DNA from: the human T2T-CHM13v2.0 reference genome, Homo sapiens
Assembly: GCA_009914755.4 (NCBI GenBank)
Contig: CP086569.2
Span: 23,744,001-23,808,000, forward strand
Length of the DNA: 64,000 nt
Direction: 5' to 3'
Shown: in pieces, positions 10,694-42,074 of the stretch
Numbering within the stretch: position 1 is the stretch's first letter
How the letters are laid out: each line of letters opens with the position of its first letter
Position numbers and translations under genes: made by a program
Notes under the pieces: generated by a model
Told to the model about the DNA's origin: nothing
Seen by the model: the letters and a program-made list of their open reading frames with translations, nothing else
Databases searched by the model: none

Positions 10694-11012
10694 GCCAGGT
10701 GTGGTGACTCATGCCTGTACTCTCAGCACTTTGGGATGCTGAGGAGGGTGTATGGAGACTTCAGGATATTGAGACCATCCTGGACAACATGGTGAAACCC
10801 TGTCTCTACTAAACTATAAAAAATATTTGTACTTTATGGTTGTGTGACTGTATTCTCAGCTACTCAGGAAACACGGTGGTTTGCATGCCTTTAATCCCAG
10901 CTACTCAAAAGGGTGAGGCTGGGGAACTGACTGAACCCGGGAGTTAGAGGTTGCAGTTAGCTGAGATTGTGTCAATGCCCTCCAGCCTAGGGACAGAGTG
11001 ATACTCCATCTC
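10694..11012 (+). mobile_element. Alu, diverged
   Basis: ggccaggtgtggtgactcatgcctgtactctcagcactttgggatgctgagg ... ctccagcctagggacagagtgatactccatctcaaaaacaaac. Confidence 0.8.
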
Positions 11013-16500: not shown

Positions 16501-17405
16501 ATAAAAACCCTAGAAGAAAACCTAGGCAGTACCATTCAGGACACAGACATGGGTAAGGACTTCATGTCTAAAACACCAAAAGCAATGGCAACAAAAGCCA
16601 AAATTGACACATGGGATCTAATCAAACTAAAGAGCCTCTACACAGCAAAAGAAACTACCATCACAGTGAACGGGCAACCTACAGAAGGGGAGAAATTTTT
16701 TGCAATCTACTCATCTGACAAAGGGCTAATATCCAGACTCTACAAAGAACTCAAACAAAGGTAAAAGCAAAAACAAACGACCTCATCAAAAAGTGGGTGA
16801 AGTATATGAACAGACACTTCTCAAAAGAAGACATTTATGCAGCCAACAGACACATGAAAAAATGCTCATCATCATGGCCAAAAAAGAAATGCAAATCAAA
16901 ACCACAATGAGATACCATGTCACACCAGTTAGAATGGTGATCATTAAAAAGTCAGGAAACTGCATGTGTTGGAGAGGATGTGGAGAAATAGGAACACTTT
17001 TACACTCTTGATGGGACTGTAAACTCGTTCAACCATTGCGGAAGACAGTGTGGTGATTCCTCAAGGATCTAGAACTAGAAATATCATTTGACCCAGCCAT
17101 GCCATTACCGGGTATATACCCAAAGAAGTATAAATCATGCTGCTATAAAGACACATGCACACGTATGTTTATTGTGGAACTATTCACAATAGCAAAGACT
17201 TGGAACCAACCCAAATGTCCAACAATGATAGACTGGATTAAGAAAATGTGGCACATATACACCATGGAATACTATGCAGCCATAAAAAAGGATGCATTCG
17301 TGTCCTTTGTAGGGACATGGATGAAGCTGGAAACCATTATTCTCAGCAAACTATTGCAAGGACAAAAAAAACAAACACCACATGCTCTCACTCATAGGTG
17401 GGAAT
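13590..17405 (+). pseudogene. L1 ORF2p (endonuclease-RT) remnant with multiple stops and frameshifts
   Basis: Starts atgacgggatcaaattcgagcataacaatatcaaccttaagtacaaatggg (MTGSNSSITISTLSTNGLNA). The ORF-track fragments 14162..14515, 15293..15874, 16126..16764 and 17099..17400 carry RT motifs (e.g. FADDMILY) and the C-terminal MEYYAAIKKD...SLIGGN-like end. Confidence 0.85.
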
Positions 17406-17689
17406 TGAACAATGAGAACACTTGGACACAGGATGGGGAACATCACACACCAGGGCCTGTCGTGGGATTGGAGATAGGGGGAGGGATAGAATTGGGAGAT
17501 ATTCCTAATGTAAATGATGAGTTAATGGGTGCAGCACACCAACATGGCACATGTATACATACCTACCAAACTTGCACGTTGCGCACATGTACCCTAGAAC
17601 TTCAGGTATTAAAAAAAGTAAATTTTATGAAATATCAGAGTTTTCAACTTAATAACTTGTTTCCTCTTTTCCACTCATTGGGTTAACAC

Positions 17690-23016: not shown

Positions 23017-23270
23017 CATTCTTTGGTGTGGGTGCAGTGGCTGACATCTGAAATCTCAGCACTTTGTGAGGCTGAGACAGGTGGATCACCAGAGACCAGG
23101 GGTTCAACACCAGCCAGGCCAACATACTGAAAGCCCATCTGTACTAAAAATACAAAAATTATCTGGGTGGGTGCGTGTAATCCCAGCTACACAGGAGGCT
23201 GAGGCAGAAGAATCACTTGAAACTGGGAAAGAGAGGTGGCAATGCACCTTCTGGAGCTGCAGGGTGGGCA
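23017..23270 (+). mobile_element. Alu fragment (3'-truncated)
   Basis: ggtgtgggtgcagtggctgacatctgaaatctcagcactttgtgaggctgagacaggtggatcaccag...gtaatcccagctacacaggaggctgaggcagaagaatcacttgaaactggg. Confidence 0.75.
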
Positions 23271-24582: not shown

Positions 24583-24897
24583 GGCCTGGCTGGGAGCAGT
24601 GGCTAATGCCTGTAATCCCAGAACTTAGTTAGTCCAAGCCAGGTGGATCATCAGAGGTCAGGAGTTCAAGATCAGCCTGACCAACATGGAGAAACCTCTT
24701 CTCTACTAAAAATACAGAGTTCAAGATAAGCCTGACCAACATGGAGAAACCTCTTCTCTACTAAATATACATCAGCCAGAGATTGTGGAACTTGCCTGTA
24801 ATCCCAGCTACATGGGAGGCTGAGACAGGAGAAGATCATGCCATTGCACCCCAGCCTGGTCAACAGAGTGAGATTTTGTCTCAAAGAAAAAAAAAAT
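24583..24897 (+). mobile_element. Alu with an internal ~47-bp tandem duplication (24672-24765)
   Basis: ggcctggctgggagcagtggctaatgcctgtaatcccagaac.... The segment gagttcaagat(c/a)agcctgaccaacatggagaaacctcttctctactaaa is present twice. The 3' end reads agtgagattttgtctcaaagaaaaaaaaaa. Confidence 0.85.
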
Positions 24898-26084
24898 CTA
24901 GTAGTGGCCAACCTAGAAGTTATTCTTTACCTATGAGGAACGTCTGAGACCCTGGTCTGTCCTATCCTGTGGCATGGAACACGGGCCACACAGAGGATTG
25001 AAGCCCTTTCATTTTTTGTTAAATAAAGGCTGACAGATGAAAGGTTGTTCAGACAAATGTGTTAAATAAAAATACTATACTAACTATAGGCTTTTTGCAA
25101 GTGGCTGTTGTTATCCTACTAAGCCCACTGACACTGGACTTTCTCCACTTTATGTAAGTCCAAAGTAAAACTCCATATCTCATTCACTGGTTCTGAGTCT
25201 ATTCTTTGACATCTTGAACCTCAAAACTCACCAAAGCATCAGCTATAGATGCAATTGTTCTCTTTACTACTCTCATTCAAGCCTCTTTTTTCAGATGAAC
25301 TTTCAGTGGAATACCAAGAAAGATGAACATGAAACACATCGTGGTCAGATGTAAGATTGATGCCAGAATAGGCAGTGACCACTTTCAAAGCAAAAGGGAG
25401 CATTTTTCTTTCCCCATGAGCAGCTCTCAACTTCTGTCATCATTTTCTGGTTTCAGTAATGGTTACATCCTGGCTCTGGAGGAACCATTGGCCCTGGGTA
25501 ATAAACATCTTCACTTAATCCTGGTGCAAAAAAGCTTTCTTTTGACAAATATGTCCTCTGTGATCACGAGCTTCTAAGCAATCTGGACAATGCCCAAACC
25601 AAAAAAAAAAAAAAAAAAAAACTATGAAAGAGAGATGAGTAGGTGTTAGGGAAACAACTTTCCACTTTTTTCTTTTGGCAAATTCAAACAATTTTGATGG
25701 TAGACAGATGTGCAGAAGAGGACAGCATAGTATAATTCCTCATCACATGAGTTTACAACCAAGAGTTTTCAGTCCTAACTATGAGAGCTCCAGATGAAAA
25801 CCAGAAGTTACTTCACTGTACATCTATTAATGTCTGATTGCACAGCTTTTTTTTATCATACTGAGGAGCCTTCACTGAGTATTTTTCCATTGAACATGTA
25901 GAGATAAACAGGAAAAGATAAAATAACAACTCCATAAATTTATTAAACAAGGTGTAGAAATGTTTATCTTCTCATATTATTACCATTTTCACACACACAT
26001 AATTGCATGTATATCTACCCATAAAGCTGAAATTTTCATAATAAATCTGTTATATGTCAAGTTTAAATTCAAAAAATATTTTTC

Positions 26085-26385
26085 AGTCAGTCGTGGTGGC
26101 TCACACCTGTAACCCTAGTACTTCAGGATCCTGAGGTGGATGGATCACTTGAGGTCAGGGGTTTCAAACCAGCCTGGTGAAACTATGTCTCCACTAAAAA
26201 TCCAAAAAAAAAAAAATTTTTCTGGGGATGGTGGTACATGCCTGTAATGCTACTTGGGAGGCTGAAGCCAGACAAGTTCTTGAATCTGAGATGTGGAGGC
26301 TGCAGTGATCCCAGATTGTGTCACCACACTGCAGGTGGAGTGACACCGCAAGATTCTGTCTCAAAAACAGACAAACAGAAAAATA
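26085..26385 (+). mobile_element. Alu, diverged
   Basis: gtcgtggtggctcacacctgtaaccctagtacttcaggatcctgaggtggatggatcacttgaggtcagg ... ctgtctcaaaaacagacaaacag. Confidence 0.75.
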
Positions 26386-26779
26386 TTTTTTCTTTCTTAC
26401 AACAAAAAGACACACATGTGTTCTAGATATGCCCTGGTGGAGTGGAGTGGGTGTGGAGCCTGTCTTTGTAAAGAAGGAAGAAGGGCCAGTACCCAGGATT
26501 ATGTGTGAAGGATGAATTGGCACACAAATAAAGGGGCAGCCAGGCCCTTGGCCTAGCAACACTGAAGCTTACAGGTGGCTTCGGAAAGCAGGATAAATAG
26601 CCCGTGGACTTAATGCTAGATGGCTCTGTAACAATGAAACATCTGCCCAGGGATCTTAGCAATCCTGCTAGAAGGCCCTGACTATACCCTGGATTGGAGA
26701 TACCTGAGGTAGAGTGGCTGCCAGAGAGCCTGAGCAAACACCAGTTTTGACCACTATGGCTGGGTCAATCTAAAATAGC

Positions 26780-27330
26780 TTATCTCTTCTGATTTACAAT
26801 ACAAAATATAGAAAAATAAAGTGAAAAAAGTAAAATCAAGAGAAAAAAATTAAAAAATAAGTTTAAAGTAATTAAAAATAGTAAAGACAAATAAACTGAA
26901 ACAAAATAGAGAAAAATAAAGAGAAATGTAATTAAGATCAGGGAAAGTAAATAAAATGAAGATGAAGAAAATAAATACAATAAAATTAAGAGAAATAAAC
27001 AGAAATGAAACAATTTGCAATAGAATAAAATAAAACTTTATGAATCAGGAGAAAAAATAAAAGTAAAAATAAAGATAAATATGGAGAAATAAAATAAAAT
27101 AATATAAAGGGATAAGAATGGGAGTAAATAAGATAAAAAAGAAATTAAATAAAATGTTTCAAACAAGACACAAATTGGAGAACATTTGAAATGAAGAGAC
27201 AATAATATAAAAAATAAAAGATAGAAACAAATTTAAATGCATAGAAAAAATGAAAGTAAATAAAAAATAAAAAAGAAAAAGAAAAATATATAGAAAAATA
27301 AAAGTTAAAGAGCAAAATAAGACCTGGGGA
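26780..27330. repeat. A-rich low-complexity tract (AAATA/AAAGA-like units), ~550 bp
   Basis: Continuous aaataaa / gaaaaa motifs. The FLFLF-type ORFs here are compositional artefacts. Confidence 0.8.
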
Positions 27331-27614
27331 TAATCTACAAAATGTTTCACCCAACAATTGCATAGTACATATTTCTATATACATTTGGCATGTTTTCTTA
27401 GATAGGCAAACTTTTAAGCTAGAATGCAAGTTTTAGCATATTTAAACTGACGGTAATCACAAAAAATATTATTTCTGACTACAATAAAATATAACTGGAA
27501 GTAAAAACCAAAAGAAAACTAGTATATCTGCATATACATGAAACCTAGACAAATTCTTGAGCATACTATTTTTCAAGAGTTAGAATAGGCAAGTTTCTTT
27601 AGATGTTAATTGTT

Positions 27615-28318
27615 TGGATTCACTCAGGCCGCTGGCAGAAATATTACAGGGAAGTATTAGGAAAAGTTATAAGGAATAGTAACAAACCTTTTTGGCAGGC
27701 TAAAAGGCTAAAATTATTATATAGCTTGTAATAATTGAACAGGCTGAAGGCAACCTCTTCTTACCTTAAAGCATTAGGTCATAGGGTAAATACTAGGGAC
27801 AACTGAGGCTTCTCCAGTTAAGTCTGTTTACTCTACCTCCACTAACTAAGATGGCTCTCTCCAGGGAGTTCGACCAGAGAAATTGCCCCCAATGGTATTT
27901 ACTTTAGACTGTGGTAACTGAGGTTTAATCATTCACAGAACTATTCTCTTAACAATGTTAATTATCCACAAGTGTGTTTACTCAAAGCTTCTGTGATTAA
28001 TTCTATACTAAATAAATGCCTGGAGGGTGAGTTGCTCAGGGTGGGCCTCCATTCTTTACAGGACTCTCCGTGGAGTCTGGGAGTGGCCTCGGACCCTCTG
28101 CTGCTGGCAAAGCAGGATATCTGTGTGTCAGGTAGTTTATTCACCCATCGCCAGGTCTGCAGTTGGAGCCCATTGTGTGAGGCAGTCTGTGAAGGAAGTG
28201 TGAGAACCACCCTCATGAGGAAAGCTGTAGAGGAAGAGTGAGGAATGCGACAGACTCCCTGAAAGCAAAGGTGGAAAAAGAATTCACGTGGTGAAGTCAG
28301 TGACTAATCAGTAAGTCA
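27615..28318 (+). mobile_element. 5' LTR of a class II (HERV-K-like) provirus remnant, followed by a tRNA-Lys-like PBS
   Basis: Direct repeat of 39925-40545 (~85-90% identical over ~600 bp). Starts TGGATTCACTCAGG and ends ...gtaagtCA. It is followed by t + TGGTGCCCACTCGAGGT at 28320, which partially matches the Lys PBS TGGCGCCCAACGTGGGG. Confidence 0.55.
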
Positions 28319-28502
28319 TTGGTGCCCACTCGAGGTTACCAAGTTCTGGGAGAAGTTGGGTCAAGCTGAGGTATTCTCATGGGACAACATTTATCAGCTC
28401 AACAGAAACAGTATATAAAAGTGTTGAAACAGTTGCTTAAGGCTAGTGGAGCATCAGTTTTGCAGGCTCAATTAGGGGACATAATGCAAACTGTTGTAAT
28501 CC

Positions 28503-29312
28503 TGAGAGGTAAAACTGGCTGGGCTTTGGGTGGGGTGGGGACTTGGAGAACTTTTCTATCTAGCTAAATGATTGTAAATGCACCACTCAGTGCTCTGTGT
28601 AGAGCTAATCAGGTAAGGGACTTGGAGAGCTTTTCTGTCTAGCTAAAGGATTGTAAATGCACCAATTGGTGCTCTGTGTCTAGCTAAATGTTTATAAATG
28701 CACCAATCTGCACTTGCTAAAAACAGACCGATCAGCACTCTGTAAAATGGAACAATCGGCAGGATGAGGGTGGGGACAAATAAGGGAATAAAAGCAGGCC
28801 ACCTCAGCCAGCAGTGGCAACCCACTCAGGTCCCCTTCCACACTGTGGAAGACCTGTTCTTTTGCTCTTTGCAATAAATCTTGCTGCTACTCAGTCTTTG
28901 GGTCCACACTACCTTTATGAGCTGTAACACTCACCATGAAGGCCTGCAGCTTCACTCCTGAAACCAGCAAGACCACAAACCCACCGGGAGGAACAAACAA
29001 CACTGGATGCACCACCTTTAAGAGCTGTAACACTCACTGTGAAGCTCTGCAGCTTCACTCCCGAAGTCAGCGAGACCATGAACCCACTGAGAGGAACAAA
29101 CAACTCCAGAAACACCAACTTTAAGAGCTGTAACACTCACTGTGAGGGTCTGCAACTTCACTCCTGAAGTCAGCGAGACCATGAACACCTGAAGGAACAA
29201 ACTCTGGACACACTGTCTTTAAGAACTGTAACAGTCACCGTGAGAGTCCATGGCTTCATTCTTGATGTCAGTGAGACCAAGAACCCATGGGAAGGAATCA
29301 ATTCCAGACACA
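28503..29312 (+). promoter_or_regulatory. HERV9 5' LTR (LTR12), ~810 bp, with 3-4 copies of a ~100-bp 3' VNTR unit
   Basis: Starts tgagaggtaaaactggctgggc and ends ggaatcaattccagacaca. Tandem units run over 28905-29290. Confidence 0.8.
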
Positions 29313-30434
29313 CTTTGGTGACCACAAAGGGACTATTGCCTATTGCCAAGCAGTGAGTACCATCGACCCCTTGTGCTTGCTATTCTGTCCTATTTTTCCT
29401 TAGAATTCTAGGGCTAAATAGCAGGCACCTGTCAGCCAGTTAAAAGCAACTAGCTTGGTCACTGAACTAAAGACATGGGTGCCAGGCTTTCTGGGAAAGG
29501 GCTCTCTAGCAACCCCAACTCTTCGGAGTTGGGAGTGTTGGTTTGCATGGAACTAGCTTCCACTTTCCCTGTACTTCTGGGCTGAGATGAGGGTTGATAG
29601 GAAAACCATTCAGCTCCATGGTCCCAACAACAAATTGGTTGACCCTGCAGCCATGGCGGAACTCTTAGTCATGTCGCCCAAGCGAGACTCTCCCATCTAT
29701 CCTATCTATCCTGAGCCTTGCCTCCTGGGTCCTAAAGCCTGTCAGACAATCTTCCTCTTGCTTCTGTTCTCTGAGGCTAGTCCTGCTTCTAAAAACCACT
29801 CCCTGTCTCTGGTGCTTTTCTAGTTTCTCCTGTAAGAACTATTTCTGGTATAAACTCCAGGACTCTATTCCCTTCTCCTGGCACTCAGGCTCAGCAATCA
29901 GAAAGAGAGAATTTTTGCCCAAAGCCCCATTTTAAGGGGGACTATCTGGAATTTTAGGATCCCTCCTCAGACAAACAGGCTTAACAAAACCTATTCCTGA
30001 AGCTAGGATATGGGACGCCTCAGAAATTGTATCTTTCTTATTCATATAAGTGAGGACAAAAGGCATCACTCTTCTGACTCTGGTGATCTCTTCCCTCCCT
30101 CAGGGTATGGCCCTCCACTTCATTTTTGGGGCATAACATCTTTATAGGACAAGGATAAATTCCCAATATTAACAGGATAATGCTTAGGACTCTAACAGGT
30201 TTTTGAGAATATGTCAGTAAGGGCCACTAAATCCGATTTTTCTCAGTCCTCTTTGTGGTCTGGGTGGACAGGCAAGGCTGCAGGTTTTGTTGTGGTCCAG
30301 GAGGAAAACCAGTGTTTCTGCTGCTGCATCAGTGAGCACAACTATTCTGATCAGCAGGGTCCAGGATCCATTGTGGGTTCTTGGGCAGGTGGAGAAACAA
30401 ACAAACAAAAAGAGTGGGCCGTTTTCTCTTTCGG

Positions 30435-31745
30435 ATGGGAAACACTCAGGCATTAACAGACCCACTCTTGCAATGCATCCTAAGCCATTGGGACCAATTT
30501 TACCCACAAACCCTGAAAAAGTGGTGGCTTATTTTTTTCTGCACTATGGCCAGGACCCAATATTCTCTCTCTGATGTGGAAAAATGGCCACCTGAGAGAA
30601 ATATAACTTACAATACTATACTGTAGCTTGACCTTTTCTGTAAGAGGTAAGGCAAAAGGAGTGCAATACCTTAAGTCCAAGTTTTCTTTTCATTGAAGGA
30701 GAATACAAAACTATGCAAAGCTTGCAATTTACATCCCACAGGAGGAACACTCAGCTTACCTGCATATCCTAGCCTCCCTATAGCTCCCCTTCCTATTAAT
30801 GATAAGCCTCCTCTAATCTCCCCTGCCCAGAAGGAAACAAGCAAAGAAATCTCCAAAGGAACACAACCCTTCCCCGGGCTATCGATTACATCCCCTTCAA
30901 GCTCTAGGGAGAGGGGAATTTGGCCCAACCTTGGTACATGTCCCCTTCTCCCTCTCTGATTTAAAGCAGATCAAGGTAGACCTGGGAAAGCTTTCAGATG
31001 ATCCTGATAGGTACATAGATGTCCCACAGGATCTAGGGCAAAGCCTCGATCTCACTTGGAGAGATGTCATGCTATTGGTAGATCAAACCCTGACCTTTAA
31101 TGAAAAGAATGTGGCTTTAGTTTTAGCCTGAGAGTTTGGAGATACCTTGTATCTTAGTCAAGTAAATGATAGAATGACAGCTGAAGAAAGGGAAAAATTC
31201 CCTACGGGTTGGCAAGCCATTCTCAGTGTGGATCCCTATTGGGACCTTGACTCAGATCATGGGGACAAGAGTCATAAACATCTGTTCACCTGTGTTCTAG
31301 AAGGACTAAGGAAAATTAGGAAAAAGCACATGAATTATTCAGTGATATCCACCATAACTCAGGGAAAGGAAGAAAATCCTTCTGCCTTCCTTGTGTGGCT
31401 AAGGGAGGCCTTAAGAAAATATACTGCCCTGTCACCCAAATCACTCAAGGGTCAATTGATTCTAAAAGATAAGTTTATTACCCAATCAGCCACAGACATC
31501 AGGAGAAACTCCAAAAGCAAGCCCTGGGCCCTGAACAAAATCTGGAGGCATTACTAAACCTGGCAACCTTGGTGTTCTATAATAGGGACCAAGAGGAACA
31601 GGCCCAAAAGGAAAAGTGAGATCAGAGAAATGCTGCTGCCTTAGTCATGGCCCTCAGACAAACAAACCTTGGTGTTTCAGAGAGGACAGAAAAGGGAGCA
31701 GGGCAATCACCCGGTAGGGCTTGTTATCAGTGTGGTTTACGAGGA
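30435..31745 (+). pseudogene. HERV9 gag remnant (MA-CA-NC), multiple frameshifts
   Basis: MGNTQALTDPLLQCILSHWDQF (start at ~30435). ORFs 30693..30959, 30931..31131 and 31147..31557 give gamma-retroviral MA/p12/CA-like sequence. The NC CCHC knuckle [13 protein letters not shown] at ~31725-31765 is interrupted by an Alu. Confidence 0.7.
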
Positions 31746-31768
31746 CACTTAAAAAAAAAGATCATCCA

Positions 31769-32228
<460 letters not shown>

Positions 32229-32229
32229 T

Positions 32230-34400
32230 CACCCTCACTGAGCCATGGGTATGCTTATCCATTAATGGCCAGGAAATTGGCTTCTTCCTGGACACTGATG
32301 CGGTCTTCTCGGTGTTAATCTCCTGTCCTGGACGACTGTCCTCAAGATCCGTTACCATCTGAAGAATGCTGGGACAGCCTGTAACCAGGTATTTCTCCCA
32401 ACTCCTCAGTTGTAATTGGGAGACTTTGCTCTTTTCACATGCCTTTCTTAATATGCCTGAAAGTCCCACACCCTTATTAGGGAGGGATATATTAGTCAAA
32501 GCTGGAGCTATTATCTACATGAATATGGGGAGCAAGTTACCCATTTGTTGTCTGTGGCTTGAGGAGGGAATTAACCCTGAAGTTTGGGCATTGGAAGGAC
32601 AATTTGGAAGGGCAAAATGCCTGCCCAGTCCAAATCAGGCTAAAAGATCCCACCACTTTTCCTTATCAAAGGCAATTTCCCTTAAGGCCTGAAGCTCATA
32701 GAGGATTACAGGATACTGTTAAACATTTAAAATCTTGAGCCTCAGTAAGGAAATGCAGCAGTCCCTGCAGCACTCCAATTCTAGGAGACCAAAACCCAGT
32801 CAGTGGAGACTAGTGCAAGATCTTAGACTCATCAGTGAGGCAGTAATTCCTCTATATCCAGTTGTACCCAACCCCTATACCCTGCTCTCTCAAATACCAG
32901 AGGAAGCAGAATGGTTCACAGCTCCGGACCTCAAGGATGCCTTCTTCTGTATTCCTCTGCCTCTGACTCCCACTTTCTCTTTGCCTTTGAGGATTCCACA
33001 GATCACACGTCCCAACTTACATGGAACGTCTTGCCTCAAGTGTTTAGGGATAGCCCTCATCTGTTTGGTCAGGCACTGGCCCAAGATCTAGGCCACTTGT
33101 CATGTCCAGGGACTCTGGTCCTTCAGCTTGTGGATGATTTACTTTTGGCTACTGGTTTGGAAGCCTCATGCCAGCAGGCTAGTCTAAATCTCTTGAACTT
33201 TCTAGCTAATCAAGGGTACAAGGTGTCTAGGTCAAAGGCCAAACTTTGCCTACAGCAGGTCAAATATTTAGGCCTAATCTTAGCCAGAGGGGCCAGGGCC
33301 CTCAGCAAGGAATGAAAACAGCCAATACTGGCTTATCCTCACCCCAAGACATTAAAACAGTTGCGGGGGTTCCTTAGAACCACCCACTTTTGCCGACTAT
33401 GGATCCCCAGATACAGCAAGATGGCCAGACCACTCTGTACGGTAATCAAGGAGACCCAAAGGGTAAATACTCATCTAGTAGAATGGGAACTAGGGGCAAA
33501 AGTACCCTTTAAAACCTTAAAGCAGGCGCTAGTACAGGCTCCCGGTTTAAGCCTTCCCACAGGACAAAACTTCTCTTTATATGTCACCAAGAGAGCAGGG
33601 ATAGCTCTTGGAGTTCTTACTTAGATTTGTGGAATAATCCCCCAACCAGTGGCATACCTAAGTAAGGAAATGGATGTAGTAGCAAAAGGCTGGCCTCACT
33701 GTTTATGGGTAGCTGTAGCAGTGGCTGTCTTAGTGTCAGAGGCTATCAAAATAATACAAGGAAAGGATCTCACTGTCTGGACTACTCATGATGTAAATGG
33801 CATACTAGGTGCCAAAGGAAGTTTATGGCTATCAGACAACCACTTGCTTAGATACCAGGTGCTACTCCTTGAGGCACTGGTGCTTCAAATATGTACATGC
33901 ATGGCCCTCAACCCTGCCGCTTTTCTCCCAGAGGATGGGGATCCAATCAAGCATGACTGCCAACAAATTATCGTCCAGACTTATGCCACACAAGATAATC
34001 TCTTAGAAGTCCCCTTAGGTAATCCTGACCTTAGCCTATATACTGATGGAAGTTCATTTGTGAAGAATGGGATACAAAGGGCAGGTTATGCCATAGTTAG
34101 TGATGTAACTATACTTAAAAGTAAGTGTTTTCCCCTAGAGACCAGAGCCCAGTAAGCAGAAATACTGGCACTTACCCAAGCCTTAGAACTGGGAAAGGGA
34201 AAAAGAATAAATGTGTATACAGATAGCAAGTATGCTCATCTGATCCTACATGCCCATGCTGCAATATGGAAAGAAAGGGAGTTCCTAACCTCTGGGGAAA
34301 CCCCCATTAAATGCCACAAGGAAATCATGGAGTTATTGCACACAGTGCAAAAACCCACGGAGGTGGCATGGCACTCTTACACTGCCAAAGCCATCAAAAG
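32230..34400 (+). pseudogene. HERV9 pro-pol remnant (protease, RT, RNase H); integrase largely deleted
   Basis: ORFs 32366..32692 (LGRDILVKAGAIIY, protease), 32735..33091 (TAPDLKDAFFCIPL), 32911..33315 (LVLQLVDDLLLA, the YXDD box), 33649..34155 (YTDGSSFVKNGIQRAGYAIV, RNase H) and 34213.. (MYTDSKYAHLILHAHAAIWKEREFLTSGETPIKCHKEIMELLH). A GA-rich tract at 34400-34620 replaces the integrase region. Confidence 0.7.
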
Positions 34401-34686
34401 GGGAAGGAGAGGGGAGAACAGTAGCATAAGCAGCTGGCAGAGGCAGGGAAAGACCAGCAGAAAGGAAAAAGAGGAAGAGACAGAAAGTCAGAGGGAGAGA
34501 GAGAGAGGAAGAGACAGACAGACAAAGAGGGAGTCAGAAAGACAGAAAGAGAGAGATGAAGGAGAAGTCAAAGAGAATGAAAGAGATATGGAAATAGTAA
34601 AGAAAAAACAGTATACCCTATTCCTTTAAAAGCCAGGGTAAATTTCTAAATATCTACCCAGCCAAGGCATATTCTTCTCCTGTGGA

Positions 34687-35375
34687 ATGTCAAACTATAT
34701 CTGCCTCCCCACTAACTGGACAGGCACCTGCACCTTAGTCTTTCTAAGTCCCAACATTAACATTGCCCCAGGAAATCAGGCCCTATCAGTGCCCCTCAAA
34801 GCTCAAGTCCATCATTGCAGGGCCATACAACTAATACCCCTACTTATAGGGTTAGAAATGGCCACTGCTACAAGAACCAGAATAGCAGGTTTATCTACTT
34901 CATTTTCTTACCATCACACACTCTCAAAGGATTTCTCAGATAGTTTGTGAGAAATAACAAAATCTATCCTTACTCTACAATCCCAGCTAGATTCTTTACC
35001 AGCAGTGACACTCCAAAACTGCAGAGGACTAGACCACCTCACTGCTGAGAAAGGAGGACTCTGCACCTTCTTAGGGGAAGAGAGTTGTTTTTACACTAAC
35101 CAGTGAGGCATAGTACGAGATGCTGCCTGGTGTTTACAGGAAAAGGCTTCTGAAATCAGACATCTTTCAAACCCTTATACCAACCTCTGGAGTTGGGCAA
35201 CATGGCTCCTCCCCTTTCTAGCTCCCATGGCAGCCATCTTGCCATTACTTGCCTTCGGGCCCTGTATTGTTAACCTTCTTGTCAAATTTCTTTCTTCTAG
35301 AATTGAGGCTATCAACCTAGAGATGGTCTTACAAATGGAACCCCAAATGAGCTCAACTAACAGCTTCTACTGAGG
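34687..35375 (+). pseudogene. HERV9 env remnant (mainly TM subunit)
   Basis: Translation around 34960-35100 gives [31 protein letters not shown], the gamma-type immunosuppressive domain and CX6CC motif, followed by a membrane anchor. The SU portion is mostly absent. Confidence 0.65.
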
Positions 35376-35539
35376 ACCCCTGGACCAACCTCCTGGCCCT
35401 TTCCGTGGCCTAAAGAGTTCCCCTCTGGAGGACACTACAACTGCAGCATAATTCTTTGCCCCTATCTAGCAGGAAGTAGCTAGAGAGGTCATTGGCCAAT
35501 TCCCAACAGCAGTTGAGATGTCCTGTTTAGAGAAGGGAT

Positions 35540-36109
35540 TGAGAGGTGAAGCTGGCTGGGCTTCTCAGTCAGATGGGGACTTGGAGAACTACTTTGTTTA
35601 GATAAAGGATTGTAAATGCACCAATCAGCACTCTGTGTCTAGCTAAAGGTTTGTAAATGCACCAATTAGTGCTCTGTGTCTAGCTAATTGGGTAGGAGAC
35701 TTGGTGAACTTTTCTGTCTAGCTAAAGGATTGTAAATGCACCAATCACGCTCTGTGTCTAGCTAAAGGTTTGTAAACACACCAATCAGCACTGGATAAAA
35801 ATGGATCAATCAGCACTCCGTAAAACAGACCAATCAGCACTCTGTGAAATGGACCACTCAGAAGGATGTGGGTGACACCAGATAAGAGAATAAAAGCAGG
35901 CCACCCGAGCCAGCAGCAGCAACCTGCTTTGGTTCCCTTCCATGCTGTGGAAGCTCTGCTCTTTCACTCTTTGCAATAAATCTTGCTGCTTCTCGCTCTT
36001 TGGGTCCGCACTACCTTTAGGAGCTATAACACTCACTGTGAAGGTCTGCATCTTCTTCTTGAAGACAGCAAGACCAATAACCCACTGGAAGGAATCAATT
36101 CTGGACACA
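35540..36109 (+). promoter_or_regulatory. HERV9 3' LTR (LTR12), ~570 bp, shorter VNTR than the 5' LTR; preceded by a PPT (agagaaggga)
   Basis: Starts tgagaggtgaagctggctgggcttctcagtcagatggggacttggagaac and ends ggaatcaattctggacaca, followed by ATCC. Confidence 0.8.
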
Positions 36110-36113
36110 ATCC

Positions 36114-39100
36114 CAAGATCATGGTTCCCAGAAAAAGGAACACTGGATGTAGTACTCTGAGAACAAGTGGGGATAAATCTTCAACATCAGACACAAAGGC
36201 AACAGGTCCCAGCTGTTATGGGCTTTCATTACAGCAGCCCTGTCTCCATTATACACAGAACAGACTATAAAGGGGAACGAGGAGGAAATGTCACCTGCCT
36301 TATCACCTCCTCTTCCGTCAGCCCTAATATTACTGAGCCAAAATAACAAAGAAGAAACAGATATTTTACCTGAGCCTTTTTCTTCAATACGTAAGAAAAA
36401 GGACCAGGAATACCCTCCAGTTATTAGTCCCTGTCTTCAGCTGGCAGCAATAAAAGGAGAGTTATTAGCCTGCCCGGTAATGCAAAATCAGCCAAGTAAT
36501 CAGGTACATAAAGGGTTAAGAATAATCACTAAAAGCCAGAGCCACAGGGCCAGGACAAGGAAGCAGTAAGTAGAAAGAAAAACTCCACCCACACTGTGAC
36601 AGAAGCAACAAAGAGCCAAGCTGCAGCCAGAGCTAGCCTGCTGCGAGTGGAACAGAAGCACACGTGACAAATTCCACCCAGGCCACATGTGTCCCACAGC
36701 TGGGGAAGGGAGCCAGCACAGGCAAAAAATGGCACAGGCAAAAATGGCGACTTTATAAATGTAAAGCAGTCACAGCGCCGGGACCTGCCTGCTCCTTTCT
36801 CTAACTCCACAGGCTATCCAAGACAAAATCTCATGTGCTGCTTGTTTACAAGCAACATCACAGATTATAGTTCTCAGCTAAAATTTAAGTAAAATGTAAG
36901 AATTAGAAAACCTCTTTCTAATAACCTCCACTGTTGTCATCTCTCTTCCACCCTGATGAAGCTCACCAAATTCAAGTAAAACAGTAACGTTTAAAGGTTG
37001 AGACATTACAAACAACCCATGAGTTAGTTTAGAAGTAGTTAAAAGCAAACTTTGTTTTTTAACTAGTAGAAAAAAAATTCCTGATTACATGATTATTCAT
37101 TTTATGGATGATATTTTACTAGCAGCCCCAACGGAGCCAATACCTTTAAATTTGTTTACCTCTGTCATAAGGAATACACAACTGAAAAGTTTAGTCACTG
37201 CACCTGAAAAAGTACCCATGTTCCCTCCTTGAAAATATCTTGGATATCTGTTAATCTCCTGGTCAGTAAGACCTCAAAAGTTTAACCTAAGTACTAACAA
37301 CTTACACACATTAAATGATTAGCAGAAATTATTGGACAATGTTACCTGGATTTCTCCCATTGTTGGAATTCCTACCAATAAACTACAAAACCTGTTCTCT
37401 ATCTTAAAGGGCAACCCAGCCCTCAATTCTCCCAGATATTTAACCCTTGCAGCAAAAAGGGAAATCAAGGAAATTGAGCAAGCCGTCTTTCAAAGGAAGC
37501 TAGATCGCATTGATCCACCGTATTCCAATCAGCTATTTATTTTTTCCACCTAACACTCCCCTACAGGGTTACTAGGACAAATGACTCCCAGGCTATGTTT
37601 CCTAGAATGGGTTTTTTGCCCCCATACCGGGACTAAAACACTGTCTCCTTATACTCAGTTAATTACTAAAGTCATCTATTCAGGTCACAAACGTTAAAAA
37701 TCAGTTGCGACATAACCGATATCATCATGATTCCTTTAAGTAAAGAGCAATTCAAAGCTTCATTATCTTTGTCAATACACCCACAAATAGTTTTATCTCA
37801 TTACACAGAGCAAATAAAGCACATCCTCCCTGCTGATAAAGTCTTTCATTTCTTATCTCATACTCCGGTAATAATGCCTACAAAAAGAGTTTACTCCCCT
37901 GTAACTAATGCTTTAACACGGTTTACTGATGGGTCCGCAAACATGGAAAAGCAGCAGTCTGGTAGAGACCATATAATTCAATCATGCAATCTGAGTTTAC
38001 TAGCAAACAGAAAGCTAAGGTTACTCTGTTTATTTATTAAAGAAGTTTTACAGCCTTAACTCTATTCTGGAGCCAGGACGGTTTACTCTTTCTCCAACTT
38101 CAGCAATTGGCTAGATCAACATACAAGTCCCATTTTTATTACACATATTTGAGCCCACAGCTTACTTCCTAGCCCATTGGCTTATGAGCAGTGATCAAGC
38201 AAACCTACAGGTTAAGCCATCACTGCTAGACCAAGCCACCCAATCGCATGAATTTTTCCATCCAAATTGAAGAAACTTATCAACTTACTCAGAGACTGGC
38301 TAAATAAATTATCCTACAATGCCCAGATTGCCAGCTCACAGGTAAGTCCCCTCCTTCAACAGGTGTTAACCCTAGGGAAACAGAACTTAACCTGCTATAG
38401 CAAACAGATGTTACACCCATACTTGAATTTGGAAAACTTAGATATGTACAAGTATCTATTGATACCAACACTCATTTAATTGCTGTCCAAGATCAGAGAG
38501 AAACAGAAAGGTTAAAGAGAGAAATAGAGGGGAAAAAAAAGAAAGACTAGAAAAACCAGAGGTCAAAGTCACAAAAAGTAAGACAAAGAAAAGACATAAA
38601 GAGAAAGAAATGTTAAGAAAGTTATAACCATTAGACTGCACCTTTATTAAGGAAGGTTATGAAAGAAATAAAGTTAAGGCATGTTGAAAATTGTCTGTGG
38701 AAGTCATAAAAACATTATAAAAAGAAAACTATTCAGGACATGTTGTATAATTTTGTTTTGAAAGTCTAAGCAAGTTTTAAAATGTTAATTGTTAACAAAA
38801 TTCTCTGAGTAAACATATTGACTAAAGTTAAAGATGTGTCATCCAACAATCATAGACTGGATTAAGAAAATGTGGCACATACACACCATGGAATACTATG
38901 CAGCCATAAAAAATGATGAGTTCATGTCCTTTGTAGGGACATGGATGAAATTGGAAATCATCATTCTCAGTAAACTATCGCAAGAACAAAAAACCAAACA
39001 CCGCATATTCTCACTCATAGGTGGGAATTGAACAATGAGAGCACATGGACACAGGAAGGGGAACATCACACTCTGGGGCCTGTTGTGGGGTGGGGGGAGG

Positions 39101-39924
39101 CGGGAGGGATAGCATTGGGAGATATGCCTAATGCTAGATGATGAGTTAGTGGGTGCAGCACACCAGCATGGCACATGTATACATATGTAACTAACCGGCA
39201 CATTGTGCACATGTACCCCAAAACTTAAAGTACAATAATAAAAATAAATTAATTTAAAAAAGATGTGTCATCCAGTTTTTCTGTAAACAAGACATTAAAA
39301 GCACAAGTTTTTCTTAAAGCACTAACCTGCTCTTTAACAAAGATTATGAGAGATATCTTAGCACAGACACAATCTCTACAATTTCCAATACACAAGCACC
39401 AGCCAAGACACTGCATCCTCATCAAAGGATTAAAAGAAGAAAAAACTCGAGCCAGCCTAGGAGAGACCCTGCAAGATGATGCAGCTTTATCAGAGAAAGA
39501 TGACTCAGAAGGCTATGCAAATCCTGCTTCTTTTTTATTCTCTCACTTTGTCTACTACCTGTATCTGCCAAGCTCTATTAAGCCCATCTTGTAACCTCCT
39601 TTGTTCTACCCTAGTACTTAGACTAACACCCCCTTTCCAGCTTCTAACAACATCACTGCTTAAATAAAAGGAAATCAACATTCCCCCAGTGAGGTTCCTC
39701 ATTAATAGCACAGAGTGAACTCAGATGGCAAGTAACTCTGCAAGTCACTCTGACTGGAAGAAGTGTTGTTAATTATACTCATGATTGTTTTGTGTTATTT
39801 GCTATTTATATGATGCAAAGCTGGAATAAGATCAGTGACCACCTCACCTGACAAACCTATGACTGCACATATCTGTGCTCTGCAATCAAAAACCTGATGC
39901 AGAAAAGAACAGAGAGGAGGATTT
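36114..39924 (+). mobile_element. Internal region of the class II (HERV-K-like) provirus remnant: gag, pol (RT with YMDD, RNase H, IN) and possible env fragments, heavily deleted
   Basis: A gag-like ORF lies at 36288..36569. Translation around 37090 gives IIHFMDDILLAAPTEP (RT). Around 37900 it gives RFTDGSANMEKQQSG (RNase H). Around 38300-38480 it gives CPDCQLTG...VSIDTNTHLIAV, which is integrase-like. A purine-rich PPT (gaaaagaacagagaggagg) precedes the 3' LTR. Confidence 0.55.
38846..39259 (+). mobile_element. 5'-truncated L1 3' fragment (ORF2 C-terminus plus 3'UTR, young L1PA-like) with a 15-bp TSD, aagatgtgtcatcca
   Basis: acaatcatagactggattaagaaaatgtggcacatacacaccatggaatactatgcagccataaaaaatgatgag...gcacatgtaccccaaaacttaaagtacaataataaaaataaattaatttaaaaaag. 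The TSD copies lie at 38831-38845 and 39260-39274. Confidence 0.85.
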
Positions 39925-40545
39925 TGAGATTCACTCAGGAGGATGGCAGAAATATTAAAAGAAAATAATTAGGGAAAGTTATAGGGAATAGTCACAGACT
40001 TTTGGAAGGCTGAAAGGTTGCATAGCTTGTAATAATTCAAGGGGCTGAAGGTAGTCGGTTTTAACCTTAAAGCATTTGGTCATAGGGTAAATGCTAAGGA
40101 CAATAGAGGCTTCCCCAATTAAGTTTTTTTACCCCACCTCCATTAACTAACCTTTAAGCCAGATGGTCCTTTCTGGGGAATGTCAACCAGGGAAATTGCC
40201 CCCACTGGCATTTACTTTAGACCGTGGTGCCTGAGGTTTCGTTATTCACAGAACTATTCTCTTAACCAGGTTAATTATCCACAAGTGTGTCTACTCAAAG
40301 CTTCTGTTAATAATTCTATACTAAATAAATGCCTGGAGTGCAAGTTGCTCAGGGCACAGCTGCCACTCTTTACAGGACTCCCTTTGGAGACTGTTAGTGG
40401 CCCCAGACCCTCAGCTGGACTTGAAAAGCAGAATATCTGTGTGACAGGGTACTTTATTCATCTGTCGCTCGGTCAGGGGTCTGCAAGGGACAGACTCCCT
40501 GCAGCTAATGCCCTCATGAAAAGAGTGGTGCCTCAGTTAATGGTA
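39925..40545 (+). mobile_element. 3' LTR of the class II (HERV-K-like) provirus remnant
   Basis: Direct repeat of 27615-28318. Starts TGAGATTCACTCAGG immediately after the PPT. Confidence 0.55.
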
Positions 40546-40593
40546 TTAGAAATGATCTACAGGTCAATGAGAACTCTTTCAAAGAGCCAATAG

Positions 40594-40629
40594 TTTTTTG
40601 TTGTTGTTGTTGTTTTTGTTTTTGTTTTG
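40594..40629. repeat. (T)n/(TTG)n simple repeat
   Basis: ttttttgttgttgttgttgtttttgtttttgtttt. Confidence 0.9.
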
Positions 40630-40672
40630 CAGAAGTAGTAAAATATTCTAAAATGTTTGAGTCAATATTTAG

Positions 40673-40928
40673 CTGTGTCACCCAGGCTGGAGTGCAATGC
40701 TATAATCATGGCTCACCATAGCCTTGACACATCAAGCTCAATTGATCCTCCCACCTCAGCTCCAGAAGTAGCTGAGACTGCAGGTGCATGCCACCATGCT
40801 CAGCAAGTTCTTGTATTTTTTGTAGATACAGGGTTTCACCATATTGCCCAGGCTGGTGTCAAACTACTGGGGTCCTGCAATCCACCTTCCTTGGCTTCCC
40901 AATGTATTGGGATCACAGGAGTAAGCCC
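40673..40928 (-). mobile_element. Alu, minus orientation, slightly truncated
   Basis: ctgtgtcacccaggctggagtgcaatgctataatcatggctcaccatagcc...gcccaggctggtgtcaaactactggggtcctgcaatccaccttccttggcttcccaatgtattgggatcacaggagtaagccc. Confidence 0.8.
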
Positions 40929-41964
40929 TCAAATATTGCACTATAATTTATGTAAACACTCAAAAACAAACAAAACAAAAAAAGTAGCAAAACAACTTTG
41001 GAAAAAAAGAATATACTTAGATAAATACTTTTTATTTCAAAACATATTGCCAAGTTACAGTAATCAAAATAGTGTGGTGCTGGCATAAAGACAGTTAAAT
41101 CAATGTTAAGGCAAATAACAGAGGCCAGAATGAAACCCACATGCATAAAATTCAGCTTATCTTAAACAAACGTTCTAATTCCTCATGTTGCAGAACGTTC
41201 TCCTTCAGCAAAATTGGGTTCTTGTCACATGACTAGGAAAGATTAGGCTCAGGGACACTCCTGAAGGATAAAGAGTAGAGCTGATTGGGTAAAAGAAAAG
41301 AAAAAAAGAAAAACTCTCAACGAAGTGAGTGGGAGTCGTGTTTACCAGGCCCCCACTTCACGGATTGCTGAACACCAGACCATCACACAGGAACTGATGA
41401 AGCCAGGCTCCTCCTCCCTGCACAAGGGGTAAAGTTTCCATGGCCTTCCAAGCCTCCACTCCCTTCCCCCAGTTTTCAGATGGAAATTATTCAAAGAGAA
41501 TCTGTTGGAAAAAGGCAGGCTTCATCTAGCACAAGCACTCGATTTTTCAGCCTTCAGGCTGTTTTAGGCTTGAAGATGGGGTTTTGTCCAAGACACTTGG
41601 CTGTTTTCTAACTCTGTTATTTTCCACTGTCAATAAGTATATCTAACTGCTGTTAGAATAAGGATAAAGATGAGGACAAAAACCACTTTTAAGTGCTTCC
41701 TGATGACAGGGGGCACTGTTGTGAAATAAATGGCAGTCAGTTATTCCTTAGAGGCCTAAGTGTCTCCAGTGAAAGGGGCCATTGTCTCAGCCTATGGTAG
41801 TGTGACTGTTTGAAGTTTGATAGCCTGAAGGTGAGGAGAATCAAACTGTGTTACTAAAAAGCACGTATTAAAATGAACCAAGGGAAATGTGGAAGAGACA
41901 GCTCAAAAAAAATCCAGGGTTTTCACCAGTTTGCATAGGTAGAGGGAGGCCAAAAGCCCAACAG

Positions 41965-41998
41965 GAAAAAATAAAAGAAAGAAAGAAAAAGAAAAGGA

Positions 41999-42074
<76 letters not shown>

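What the first reader, a model, noticed from the sequence alone, without database searches (positions are those of the whole stretch)
27615..40545. Three-level nested retroelement: an AluY inside a HERV9 provirus inside a HERV-K-like provirus, plus an L1 3' fragment
A ~0.7-kb direct repeat, with a TG start, a CA end, a Lys-like PBS after the 5' copy and a PPT before the 3' copy, frames about 4.9 kb of betaretrovirus-like internal sequence carrying an FMDD RT box. A HERV9 provirus with a perfect ATCC TSD sits 180 bp downstream of the 5' LTR end, in the leader. The nesting gives a clean relative chronology: the HERV-K-like provirus is older than the HERV9 insertion, which is older than the AluYa5-like insertion. 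All TSDs are readable.
Basis: partly seen in the sequence, partly recalled or inferred. Interest (0 to 1): 0.55.

Follow-up and report, generated by a model that had tools for sequence, protein, structure and literature searches.

The report
Nested ancient retrovirus copies, human DNA
This stretch is an ordinary pile-up of dead mobile elements in primate (evidently human) DNA: an old HERV-K(HML-5) provirus was hit first by a HERV9 provirus, which was later hit by a young AluYa5, and it separately took up a truncated L1 tail.

Summary
The nested structure is real, and all four target-site duplications (TSDs) can be read.

**Outer element.** It is a heavily deleted betaretrovirus-like provirus at 27611-40535.
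- Its TSD is the 6-bp GTTAAT.
- Its LTRs are 708 and 615 bp long and differ at about 16% of sites.
- Its RT matches the HERV-K RT structure (E 9e-43). Its integrase N-terminus matches MMTV integrase (E 2e-13).
- Of 13 published HML Env consensuses, only the HML-5 ones hit its env remnants (E down to 8e-17). I therefore assign it to HERV-K(HML-5), that is HERVK22/LTR22.

**HERV9 insertion.** A HERV9/LTR12 provirus lies at 28503-36109 with the 4-bp TSD ATCC. It sits in codon 42 of the outer gag matrix gene, not in the leader.

**Alu and L1.**
- An Alu at 31769-32049 differs at 2 positions from the AluYa5 consensus as I recall it. It lies in the HERV9 nucleocapsid zinc knuckle.
- A 413-bp L1 3' end at 38846-39258, with a 16-bp TSD, lies in the outer provirus after the integrase break.

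- The outer provirus has about 3.6 kb of its own internal sequence, not 4.9 kb.
- The PBS is too decayed to call Lys-like.
- The two LTR pairs are equally diverged, so only the nesting orders the first two events.

This is ordinary, known repeat biology and of low interest.

The parts
27605..27610 (+). 5' copy of the outer provirus target-site duplication, GTTAAT
   Evidence: It directly precedes the TG at 27611 and is identical to 40536-40541. Six bp is the betaretrovirus TSD size (established knowledge).
27611..28318 (+). Outer 5' LTR (LTR22-type, HML-5), 708 bp, TG...CA
   Evidence: It aligns with 39921-40535. The core of 538 sites has p = 0.160 and K2P 0.182. The HML5d Env consensus read-through matches from 27611. 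An AATAAA lies at about 28013.
28320..28337 (+). Outer primer-binding site, TGGTGCCCACTCGAGGTT (decayed)
   Evidence: It starts one base after the LTR. It is 4-5 edits from Met-like, His-like and Lys-like PBS motifs, so the tRNA cannot be assigned.
28379..28502 (+). Outer gag start (matrix, MGQHLSAQQ...), first 41 codons, cut by the HERV9 insertion
   Evidence: Translation. Alone it gives a weak Gag_p10 hit of 16 bits. Joined to 36114 onward it gives 41.4 bits, E 1.4e-10, with the frame preserved.
28499..28502 (+). 5' copy of the HERV9 TSD, ATCC
   Evidence: Identical to 36110-36113. Four bp is the gammaretrovirus-type TSD size (established knowledge).
28503..29312 (+). HERV9 5' LTR (LTR12-type), 810 bp. 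It has roughly 40- and 80-bp U3 repeats and four copies of a 103-bp U5 repeat.
   Evidence: Repeat families D1 and D2. 78.5% identity over 461 bp to the published HERV9 consensus LTR, E 1.5e-103.
29316..29333 (+). HERV9 primer-binding site, TGGTGACCACAAAGGGAC
   Evidence: This exact 18-mer occurs 15 times in the PBS field of Vargiu 2016 Table S1; the rows shown are HERVW (taxorder 10310), typed R by RetroTector and W by tRNA match. The paper says this R/W ambiguity mainly affects HERV9 and HERVW. It differs at 1 position from tggtgaccacgaagggac.
29313..35539 (+). HERV9 internal region: leader, gag, pro, RT, RNase H and env TM. Integrase and most of env SU are missing.
   Evidence: Pfam hits: Gag_p30 1e-15, RVT_1 3e-10, RNase_H 3e-9, TLV_coat 6e-11 and 4e-7. 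The leader is 81% identical over 577 bp to the HERV9 consensus, E 4e-149.
31751..31768 (+). 5' copy of the Alu TSD, A9-GATCATCCA
   Evidence: The same string follows the Alu at about 32051-32068.
31769..32049 (+). AluYa5-type Alu (281-bp body) inserted in the first nucleocapsid zinc knuckle of HERV9 gag ([13 protein letters not shown]|)
   Evidence: It has 2 differences from the AluYa5 consensus and 7 from AluY, including all five Ya5 diagnostic bases. The consensuses are from my memory. Other Alus in the window differ from Ya5 at 47-104 positions.
35540..36109 (+). HERV9 3' LTR (LTR12-type), 570 bp, with a single U5 repeat unit, ending ...GGACACA
   Evidence: It aligns with the 5' LTR at p = 0.167 and K2P 0.192 over 504 sites. 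78.6% identity over 510 bp to the HERV9 consensus, E 7e-114.
36110..36113 (+). 3' copy of the HERV9 TSD, ATCC
36114..36566 (+). Rest of the outer gag matrix region (…RSWFPEKGTLD…GNRSQLLWAFITAALSPLY…), with frameshifts
36739..38179 (+). Outer pol: RT (FMDD at 37098-37121), thumb, connection and RNase H, with stops and frameshifts. Capsid, nucleocapsid, dUTPase and protease gave no match and appear to be deleted between about 36570 and 36740.
   Evidence: RVT_thumb E 8e-21. The best PDB hit is HERV-K RT 7sr6 at E 9e-43, against 1e-9 for HIV-1 RT. The connection domain matches 7sr6 at E 4e-11.
38244..38490 (+). Outer integrase N-terminus (HHCC zinc domain and the start of the catalytic core); homology stops at about 38475
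   Evidence: MMTV integrase structures 5cz2, 3jca and 7usf, E 2e-13 to 5e-13.
38830..38845 (+). 5' copy of the L1 TSD, AAAGATGTGTCATCCA
   Evidence: Identical to 39259-39274 and preceded by TT.
38846..39258 (+). 5'-truncated L1 (L1PA-type): the last 61 codons of ORF2, the 3' UTR and a decayed A-rich tail
   Evidence: 57 of 61 residues are identical to residues 1215-1275 of human LINE-1 ORF2p, E 7e-34.
39259..39274 (+). 3' copy of the L1 TSD
39476..39920 (+). Outer env remnants (signal-peptide and N-terminal SU piece, then the TM membrane anchor and tail) and the polypurine tract. Most of env is deleted.
   Evidence: tblastn with published HML Env consensuses. HML5d hits 39757-39966 at E 8e-17, HML5f hits 39532-39778 at E 1e-14, HML5b at E 1e-12 and HML5a at E 1e-11. 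No consensus from HML1-4 or HML6-10 hits the outer provirus; their best hit anywhere in the window is E 0.05.
39921..40535 (+). Outer 3' LTR, 615 bp, shorter than the 5' LTR by about 90 bp near its 3' end, ending CA
40536..40541 (+). 3' copy of the outer TSD, GTTAAT

Best explanation
Four successive retroelement insertions were fixed at one primate locus. None of them now has an intact gene.

1. A betaretrovirus of the HERV-K(HML-5)/HERVK22 group integrated, duplicating GTTAAT. It later lost capsid, nucleocapsid, protease, the integrase C-terminus and most of env.
2. A gammaretrovirus-like HERV9 (LTR12) integrated into codon 42 of its gag matrix gene, duplicating ATCC. It later lost integrase and env SU, and three of the four U5 repeat units in its 3' LTR.
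3. L1 machinery inserted a 413-bp 5'-truncated L1PA tail into the HML-5 body. The target is TT|AAAG and the TSD is 16 bp.
4. The same machinery much later inserted an AluYa5 into the HERV9 nucleocapsid region, at a TT|AAAA target.

Shown here: the anatomy, the boundaries, the TSDs, the family-level homologies and the nesting order.
Inferred: the mechanisms, which follow from the established behaviour of these families, and the absolute ages. Using T = K/2r with r = 2.3-5e-9 per site per year, both proviruses date to roughly 18-42 My. The Alu is a few My old at most.
For: - Repeat pairs and divergence.
- Junctions and all four TSDs.
- Rejoining the two gag pieces across the HERV9 restores the frame and raises the Pfam Gag_p10 score from 16 to 41 bits.
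- Outer pol is betaretroviral: RVT_thumb, HERV-K RT 7sr6 at E 9e-43, MMTV integrase at E 2e-13.
- Outer env and the LTR start match only HML-5 Env consensuses from Vargiu et al. 2016, Additional file 4.
- The inner element has gamma-type Pfam domains. Its LTRs and leader match the published HERV9 consensus at E 1e-103 to 4e-149. Its exact PBS 18-mer is on record in HERVW-supergroup chains.
- L1 ORF2p C-terminus, 57 of 61 identical.
- Alu, 2 differences from Ya5.
- No Rfam family reaches threshold in 26000-42000.
Against: - No RepeatMasker or Dfam run was possible. The LTR22 subfamily, the LTR12 subfamily and the L1PA subfamily are therefore unnamed.
- The HML-5 assignment rests on env, the LTR start and general pol similarity, not on a pol phylogeny. 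Mosaic HERVs are common (PMC4724089).
- The exact 3' end of the outer 3' LTR is ambiguous in alignment.
- About 0.5 kb (38476-38829 and 39275-39440) between the integrase break and env is unassigned.
- The Alu consensuses used are recalled from memory, not taken from a database.
- The inner LTR pair is not less diverged than the outer pair, so the clock gives no independent support for the order.
Confidence: 0.93

Rival explanations
1. The outer 0.6-0.7-kb repeats are a non-LTR segmental or tandem duplication that happens to flank retroviral debris.
For: The 3' copy is about 90 bp shorter, and the repeat ends align poorly.
Against: - The repeat has TG...CA termini flanked by a perfect 6-bp GTTAAT.
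- A TGG 18-mer starts one base after the 5' copy, and a purine tract sits directly before the 3' copy.
- gag starts 61 bp after the 5' LTR.
- The start of the repeat is co-linear with a published HML-5 env-to-LTR read-through.
Confidence: 0.01
2. The outer element is a betaretrovirus-like provirus of another HML group, or a mosaic whose pol comes from a different group than its env and LTRs.
For: - pol was compared only with HML-2 RT and MMTV integrase structures. No HML-5 pol reference was available.
- Vargiu et al. report that mosaics are common.
- The PBS cannot be typed.
Against: - Only HML-5 Env consensuses match, at four separate places.
- The LTR start matches the HML5d read-through at both LTRs.
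- Nothing in pol suggests a junction.
Confidence: 0.05
3. The inner element is not HERV9 proper but a sister of the HERVW9 supergroup, such as HERV-W/LTR17 or HERV30.
For: - The exact PBS string is shown in Table S1 in chains of taxorder 10310, which is HERVW.
- Identity to the HERV9 consensus is only 78-81%.
Against: - Both LTRs match the HERV9 consensus LTR over 460-510 bp at E 1e-103 to 7e-114, including the repeated GGGGACTTGGAGAAC...CACCAATCAGC U3 units and the repeated U5 units.
- The low identity fits an old copy whose own LTRs differ by 17%.
Confidence: 0.04
4. The HML-5 LTRs come from two different proviruses joined by recombination, so the pair does not date one integration.
For: The LTRs differ by 16% and in length.
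Against: Identical 6-bp flanks indicate a single integration event. Recombination between proviruses normally leaves non-matching flanks.
Confidence: 0.02

Closest known systems
HERV-K(HML-5), also called HERVK22-int with LTR22-type LTRs
   Same: - Env remnants and the LTR start match only HML-5 consensuses.
- pol is betaretroviral, with HERV-K RT and MMTV integrase as best hits.
- gag has a Gag_p10 matrix domain.
- The TSD is 6 bp.
- LTR divergence of 16% lies inside the 8-23% reported for HML5/HML6 (PMC4724089).
   Different: - Only about 3.6 kb of internal sequence survives.
- The PBS has decayed beyond recognition, whereas the group consensus is reported to match tRNA-Met (PMC3778440).
- The LTR22 subfamily is not determined.
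HERV9 / ERV9 with LTR12 LTRs
   Same: - The LTR architecture is that of LTR12, with U3 tandem repeats carrying CCAAT-type motifs and U5 repeats of about 103 bp.
- The LTRs and leader are homologous to the published HERV9 consensus.
- The PBS is of the Arg/Trp type and the TSD is 4 bp.
- gag, pol and env are gamma-type.
   Different: - It is an old, diverged copy, about 20% from the consensus, with LTRs 17% apart.
- It lacks integrase and env SU.
- Its LTRs are unequal in length (810 against 570 bp).
AluYa5
   Same: All five Ya5 diagnostic bases are present, and there are only 2 other differences over 281 bp (the consensus is recalled from memory). It has a TT|AAAA target and a TSD.
   Different: The A-tail cannot be separated from the A-run of the TSD and is at most about 10 A, which is short for a young Alu.
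5'-truncated L1PA insertion
   Same: It has the ORF2 C-terminus, a 3' UTR, an A-rich tail, a 16-bp TSD and a TT|AAAG target.
   Different: Only 413 bp is present. The subfamily was not determined. By my recollection of the 3' UTR sequence it is not L1HS.

Membership tests
LTR provirus (any retrovirus) | Two direct LTRs with TG...CA ends, flanked by a short identical TSD | tested here: met
   Outer element: 27611-28318 and 39921-40535 with GTTAAT on both sides. Inner element: 28503-29312 and 35540-36109 with ATCC on both sides.
LTR provirus (any retrovirus) | A PBS just after the 5' LTR and a PPT just before the 3' LTR | tested here: met
   Outer element: TGG 18-mer at 28320 and purine tract at 39901-39920. 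Inner element: PBS at 29316, with only a short purine run (AGAGAAGGGA) before the 3' LTR at 35540.
Betaretrovirus-like / HERV-K (HML) supergroup | pol is most similar to betaretroviral pol | tested here: met
   HERV-K RT 7sr6 at E 9e-43 against HIV RT at 1e-9, with no MLV-type RT listed among the 60 best rows of 184 matches. MMTV integrase at E 2e-13.
Betaretrovirus-like / HERV-K (HML) supergroup | Gag_p10-type matrix protein and a 6-bp TSD | tested here: met
   Gag_p10 at 41.4 bits against a cutoff of 23.9. GTTAAT on both sides.
Betaretrovirus-like / HERV-K (HML) supergroup | dUTPase in pro and two nucleocapsid zinc knuckles | tested here: inconclusive
   No match to capsid, nucleocapsid, dUTPase or protease was found between about 36570 and 36740 in this copy. 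The region appears deleted, so the feature cannot be scored.
HERV-K(HML-5) / HERVK22 | Env of the HML-5 type | tested here: met
   Only the hml5a, b, d and f consensuses hit the outer provirus (E 1e-11 to 8e-17). The HML1-4 and HML6-10 consensuses reach no better than E 0.05 anywhere in the window, and never inside the outer provirus.
HERV-K(HML-5) / HERVK22 | LTR22-family LTR | tested here: inconclusive
   Only the first 57 bp or so could be compared, through the HML5d env read-through (13 of 19 residues at 27611-27667 and the matching 3' copy). No LTR22 consensus was available.
HERV-K(HML-5) / HERVK22 | PBS complementary to tRNA-Met (group consensus, PMC3778440) | tested here: inconclusive
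   The 18-mer is 4-5 edits from the Met-like motifs in Vargiu Table S6, and equally far from His-like and Lys-like motifs.
HERV-K(HML-5) / HERVK22 | pol clusters with HML-5 in a phylogeny | not testable with these tools
   The stored copy of the consensus file (Vargiu Additional file 3) is cut off before the HML groups.
HERV9 / LTR12 | LTR and leader homologous to the HERV9 consensus | tested here: met
   LTRs at E 1.5e-103 and 7e-114, leader at E 4e-149.
HERV9 / LTR12 | Gammaretrovirus-type genes and a 4-bp TSD | tested here: met
   Gag_p30, RVT_1, RNase_H and TLV_coat. ATCC on both sides.
AluYa5 | Five diagnostic substitutions relative to AluY | tested here: met
   All five are present at positions 89, 96, 145, 174 and 237. 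The reference consensuses are from my memory, not from a database.
L1 retrotransposition product | L1 3' end with an A-rich tail, a TSD and a TT|AAAA-like target | tested here: met
   ORF2p residues 1215-1275. 16-bp TSD preceded by TT.

The most novel reading that the evidence does not exclude
The inner (necessarily younger) HERV9 has LTRs at least as diverged as those of its HML-5 host: K2P 0.192 against 0.182, and 0.176 against 0.166 at non-CpG sites. The most novel reading not excluded is that this HML-5 copy integrated late, at about the time of the earliest ERV9 activity in catarrhines. HML-5 would then have stayed infectious far longer than the quoted age of about 55 My. A separate possibility is that the AluYa5 is a human-specific, perhaps still polymorphic, insertion with an unusually short A-tail.
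Probability: 0.15. Interest if true: 0.15.

Novelty: already known. Interest (0 to 1): 0.07.

Why it matters
It matters little beyond annotation. Nested insertions like this give a parsimony-based order of events. This one is also a small worked example of LTR divergence failing to resolve an order that nesting makes certain. The AluYa5 could serve as a lineage or population marker. The two LTR12 copies are potential regulatory elements, but nothing here shows activity.

Tried and rejected
- I searched the rest of the window for more copies of the outer LTR, to fix its 3' end. There were none.
- I looked for the outer PBS in the tables of Vargiu et al. 2016, hoping to identify the locus. It is absent from the stored parts.
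- I tried to obtain an HML-5 pol or LTR consensus. Additional file 3 is truncated before the HML groups, and Lavie et al. 2004 is not held.
- I checked whether this is the MHC class II HERVK22 described in PMC8193847. That locus is LTR12 (526 bp) plus HERVK22 (6.8 kb), a different structure.
- An Rfam scan of 26000-42000 found nothing.
- The two purine-rich tracts (about 34440-34630 and 38490-38620) are not similar to each other or to anything else in the window.
- The remaining question, the subfamily names, would not be answered by them.
Full report
**Observation**

The window carries two nested pairs of direct repeats.
- The outer pair aligns over 27613-28161 and 39923-40485. A local alignment gives 85% identity. 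MAFFT gives 538 aligned sites, p = 0.160, K2P 0.182, and 0.166 at non-CpG sites.
- The inner pair is 28503-29312 against 35540-36109, with 504 aligned sites, p = 0.167, K2P 0.192, and 0.176 at non-CpG sites.

Neither pair recurs elsewhere in the 64 kb. Repeats of this length and identity cannot arise by chance.

**Boundaries of the outer element**

Position 40545 does not end in CA. Reading the junctions gives TTAGAT-GTTAAT|TGTTTGGATTC on the left and GGTGCCTCA|GTTAAT-GGTATT on the right. That is a TG...CA element at 27611-40535, flanked by a perfect 6-bp GTTAAT.

The left boundary has independent support. One published HML-5 Env consensus (hml5d, Vargiu et al. 2016, Additional file 4) reads through the polypurine tract into its LTR. 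That read-through aligns to the window starting exactly at 27611, and at the corresponding point of the 3' copy.

The 3' LTR is 615 bp against 708 bp. Its last 50 bp or so can be aligned to the 5' LTR in two ways. The right boundary therefore rests mainly on the CA plus GTTAAT. A GTTAAT preceded by CA within the roughly 75 bp where homology fades is expected about once in a thousand trials (my estimate).

**What the outer element is**

- A TGG-initiated 18-mer starts one base after the 5' LTR.
- An ATG at 28379 opens MGQHLSAQQKQYIKVLKQLL..., a betaretroviral-looking matrix start.
- Pfam finds RVT_thumb (E 8e-21) and a partial RVT_1 around the FMDD box.
- Against all PDB sequences, the RT palm, thumb and connection piece hits the HERV-K RT structure 7sr6 at E 9e-43, and HIV-1 RT only at 1e-9.
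- The connection domain hits 7sr6 again, at E 4e-11.
- The HHCC and early-core part of integrase hits MMTV integrase (5cz2, 3jca, 7usf) at E 2e-13.

To name the group I took the Env subgroup consensuses for HML1 to HML10 from Vargiu et al. and ran tblastn against the whole window. Only HML-5 consensuses hit the outer provirus:

| Consensus | E-value | Window position |
|---|---|---|
| hml5d | 8e-17 | 39757-39966 |
| hml5f | 1e-14 | 39532-39778 |
| hml5b | 1e-12 | 39757-39918 |
| hml5a | 1e-11 | 39516-39778 |

The best hit of any other HML group anywhere in the window is E 0.05, and it lies outside the outer provirus. I therefore assign the outer element to HERV-K(HML-5). In Repbase terms this is HERVK22 with LTR22A/B/C LTRs (supplement text).

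HML-5 is described as the oldest HERV-K group, about 55 My old, with a consensus PBS identical to tRNA-Met (PMC3778440). The PBS here, TGGTGCCCACTCGAGGTT, is 4-5 edits from Met-like, His-like and Lys-like motifs alike. 'Lys-like' is therefore not supported, and the tRNA cannot be assigned.

Only 3,562 bp of HML-5 internal sequence survives. It consists of:
- the matrix region;
- RT from about 36739, then RNase H;
- the first 80 codons or so of integrase;
- two env pieces.

Capsid, nucleocapsid, dUTPase/protease, the rest of integrase and most of env gave no match and appear to be gone.

**The HERV9 insertion**

The inner element runs from 28503 (TGAGAGG...) to 36109 (...GGACACA), with ATCC on both sides. 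It does not lie in the leader. The gag ATG is at 28379, so the insertion falls in codon 42.

Removing the element and one ATCC joins ...MQTVVI to PRSWFPEKGTLD... in frame. The Pfam Gag_p10 score rises from 16.2 bits for the upstream piece alone to 41.4 bits, E 1.4e-10. This is strong evidence for a precise integration into an already resident gag gene.

The inner genes are gamma-type:

| Pfam domain | E-value |
|---|---|
| Gag_p30 | 1e-15 |
| RVT_1 | 3e-10 |
| RNase_H | 3e-9 |
| TLV_coat | 6e-11 and 4e-7 |

The LTRs carry the U3 tandem units (GGGGACTTGGAGAAC...GCACCAATCAGC) and 103-bp U5 repeats. Against the published HERV9 consensus:
- the leader is 81% identical over 577 bp (E 4e-149);
- the LTRs are about 78.5% identical over 460-510 bp (E 1e-103 to 7e-114).

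The PBS TGGTGACCACAAAGGGAC occurs verbatim 15 times in Vargiu's Table S1. The rows shown are HERVW chains, typed R or W. Integrase and env SU are missing; a purine-rich tract at about 34440-34630 sits where they should be. The 3' LTR has one U5 repeat unit where the 5' LTR has four.

**The Alu**

The Alu body is 31769-32049. It is flanked by A9-10GATCATCCA. It is inserted after [13 protein letters not shown], the first nucleocapsid zinc knuckle of HERV9 gag.

It differs at 2 positions from the AluYa5 consensus and at 7 from AluY, and it has all five Ya5 diagnostic bases. Both consensuses are recalled from memory. Other Alus in the window differ from Ya5 at 47-104 positions. The copy is therefore very young. 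Together with the L1PA and HERV content, this points to a human or very close source.

**The L1 fragment**

The L1 fragment is 38846-39258. Its last 61 codons are 57/61 identical to residues 1215-1275 of human ORF2p (E 7e-34). A 3' UTR and a decayed A-rich tail follow. A perfect 16-bp AAAGATGTGTCATCCA flanks it, and the upstream copy is preceded by TT. It lies in the HML-5 body, downstream of the point where integrase homology stops.

**Chronology**

Nesting gives HML-5, then HERV9, then AluYa5, with the L1 some time after HML-5. The LTR clock does not add to this, because the inner pair is not less diverged than the outer pair. With r = 2.3-5e-9 per site per year (quoted in PMC3778440) and T = K/2r, both proviruses come out at roughly 18-42 My. 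Either the two integrations were close in time or the clock is too noisy at this depth. The Alu, at 0.7% from its consensus, is a few My old at most.

**Verdict**

The corrections are:
- the boundaries and the TSD of the outer element;
- 3.6 kb of internal sequence, not 4.9 kb;
- insertion into gag matrix, not the leader;
- a PBS that is not demonstrably Lys-like;
- an outer family that can be named as HML-5.

Every component belongs to a well-known family and behaves as expected. Nothing suggests function or novelty. An Rfam scan of the region found nothing. Interest is low.

Noticed in passing
window 32050-32068: The AluYa5 has no separable poly(A) tail. After ...GTCTC come 10 A and then GATCATCCA, while the upstream TSD copy is 9 A and then GATCATCCA. 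The tail is therefore between about 1 and 10 A, which is short for such a young Alu.
   Followed up: partly
window 34440-34630: A purine-rich, low-complexity tract in the HERV9 (translating as ...RERERGRDRQTKRESERQKERDEGE...) sits exactly where integrase and env SU (about 2 kb) are missing. It is not similar to anything else in the window.
   Followed up: partly
window 38476-38829 and 39275-39440: About 0.5 kb of AT- and purine-rich sequence lies between the integrase break and the env start of the HML-5. It has no protein or DNA match in anything I could search. It may be decayed pol or another old insertion.
   Followed up: partly
window 31751-31768 vs 38830-38845: The Alu TSD (A9GATCATCCA) and the L1 TSD (AAAGATGTGTCATCCA) share AAAGAT...CATCCA, and the HERV9 TSD is ATCC. 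This is probably coincidence plus the preference of the L1 endonuclease.
   Followed up: no
window 28907-29313 vs 36009-36109: The 103-bp U5 repeat of LTR12 is present four times in the 5' LTR and once in the 3' LTR, so the two LTRs of one provirus differ by 240 bp in length.
   Followed up: yes
window 29245-29310 (minus strand): The C-terminal 22 residues of the published single-member 'hml5b' Env consensus match the antisense strand of the LTR12 U5 repeat at 82%. That published putein evidently runs into an LTR12 at its own locus.
   Followed up: no
window 17223-17624: A second L1 3' end, 86% identical to the one in the provirus.
   Followed up: no
window 9423-9703, 10693-11012, 23030-23244, 24588-24833, 26092-26362, 40672-40927 (minus), 59526-59801: Older Alu copies, 67-83% identical to the Ya5 copy.
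   Followed up: no
window 26780-27310: A long A-rich, low-GC (about 29%) low-complexity stretch lies just upstream of the provirus.
   Followed up: no
window 40596-40632: A (GTT)n/(GTTTT)n microsatellite lies about 60 bp after the provirus. An antisense Alu follows it.
   Followed up: no
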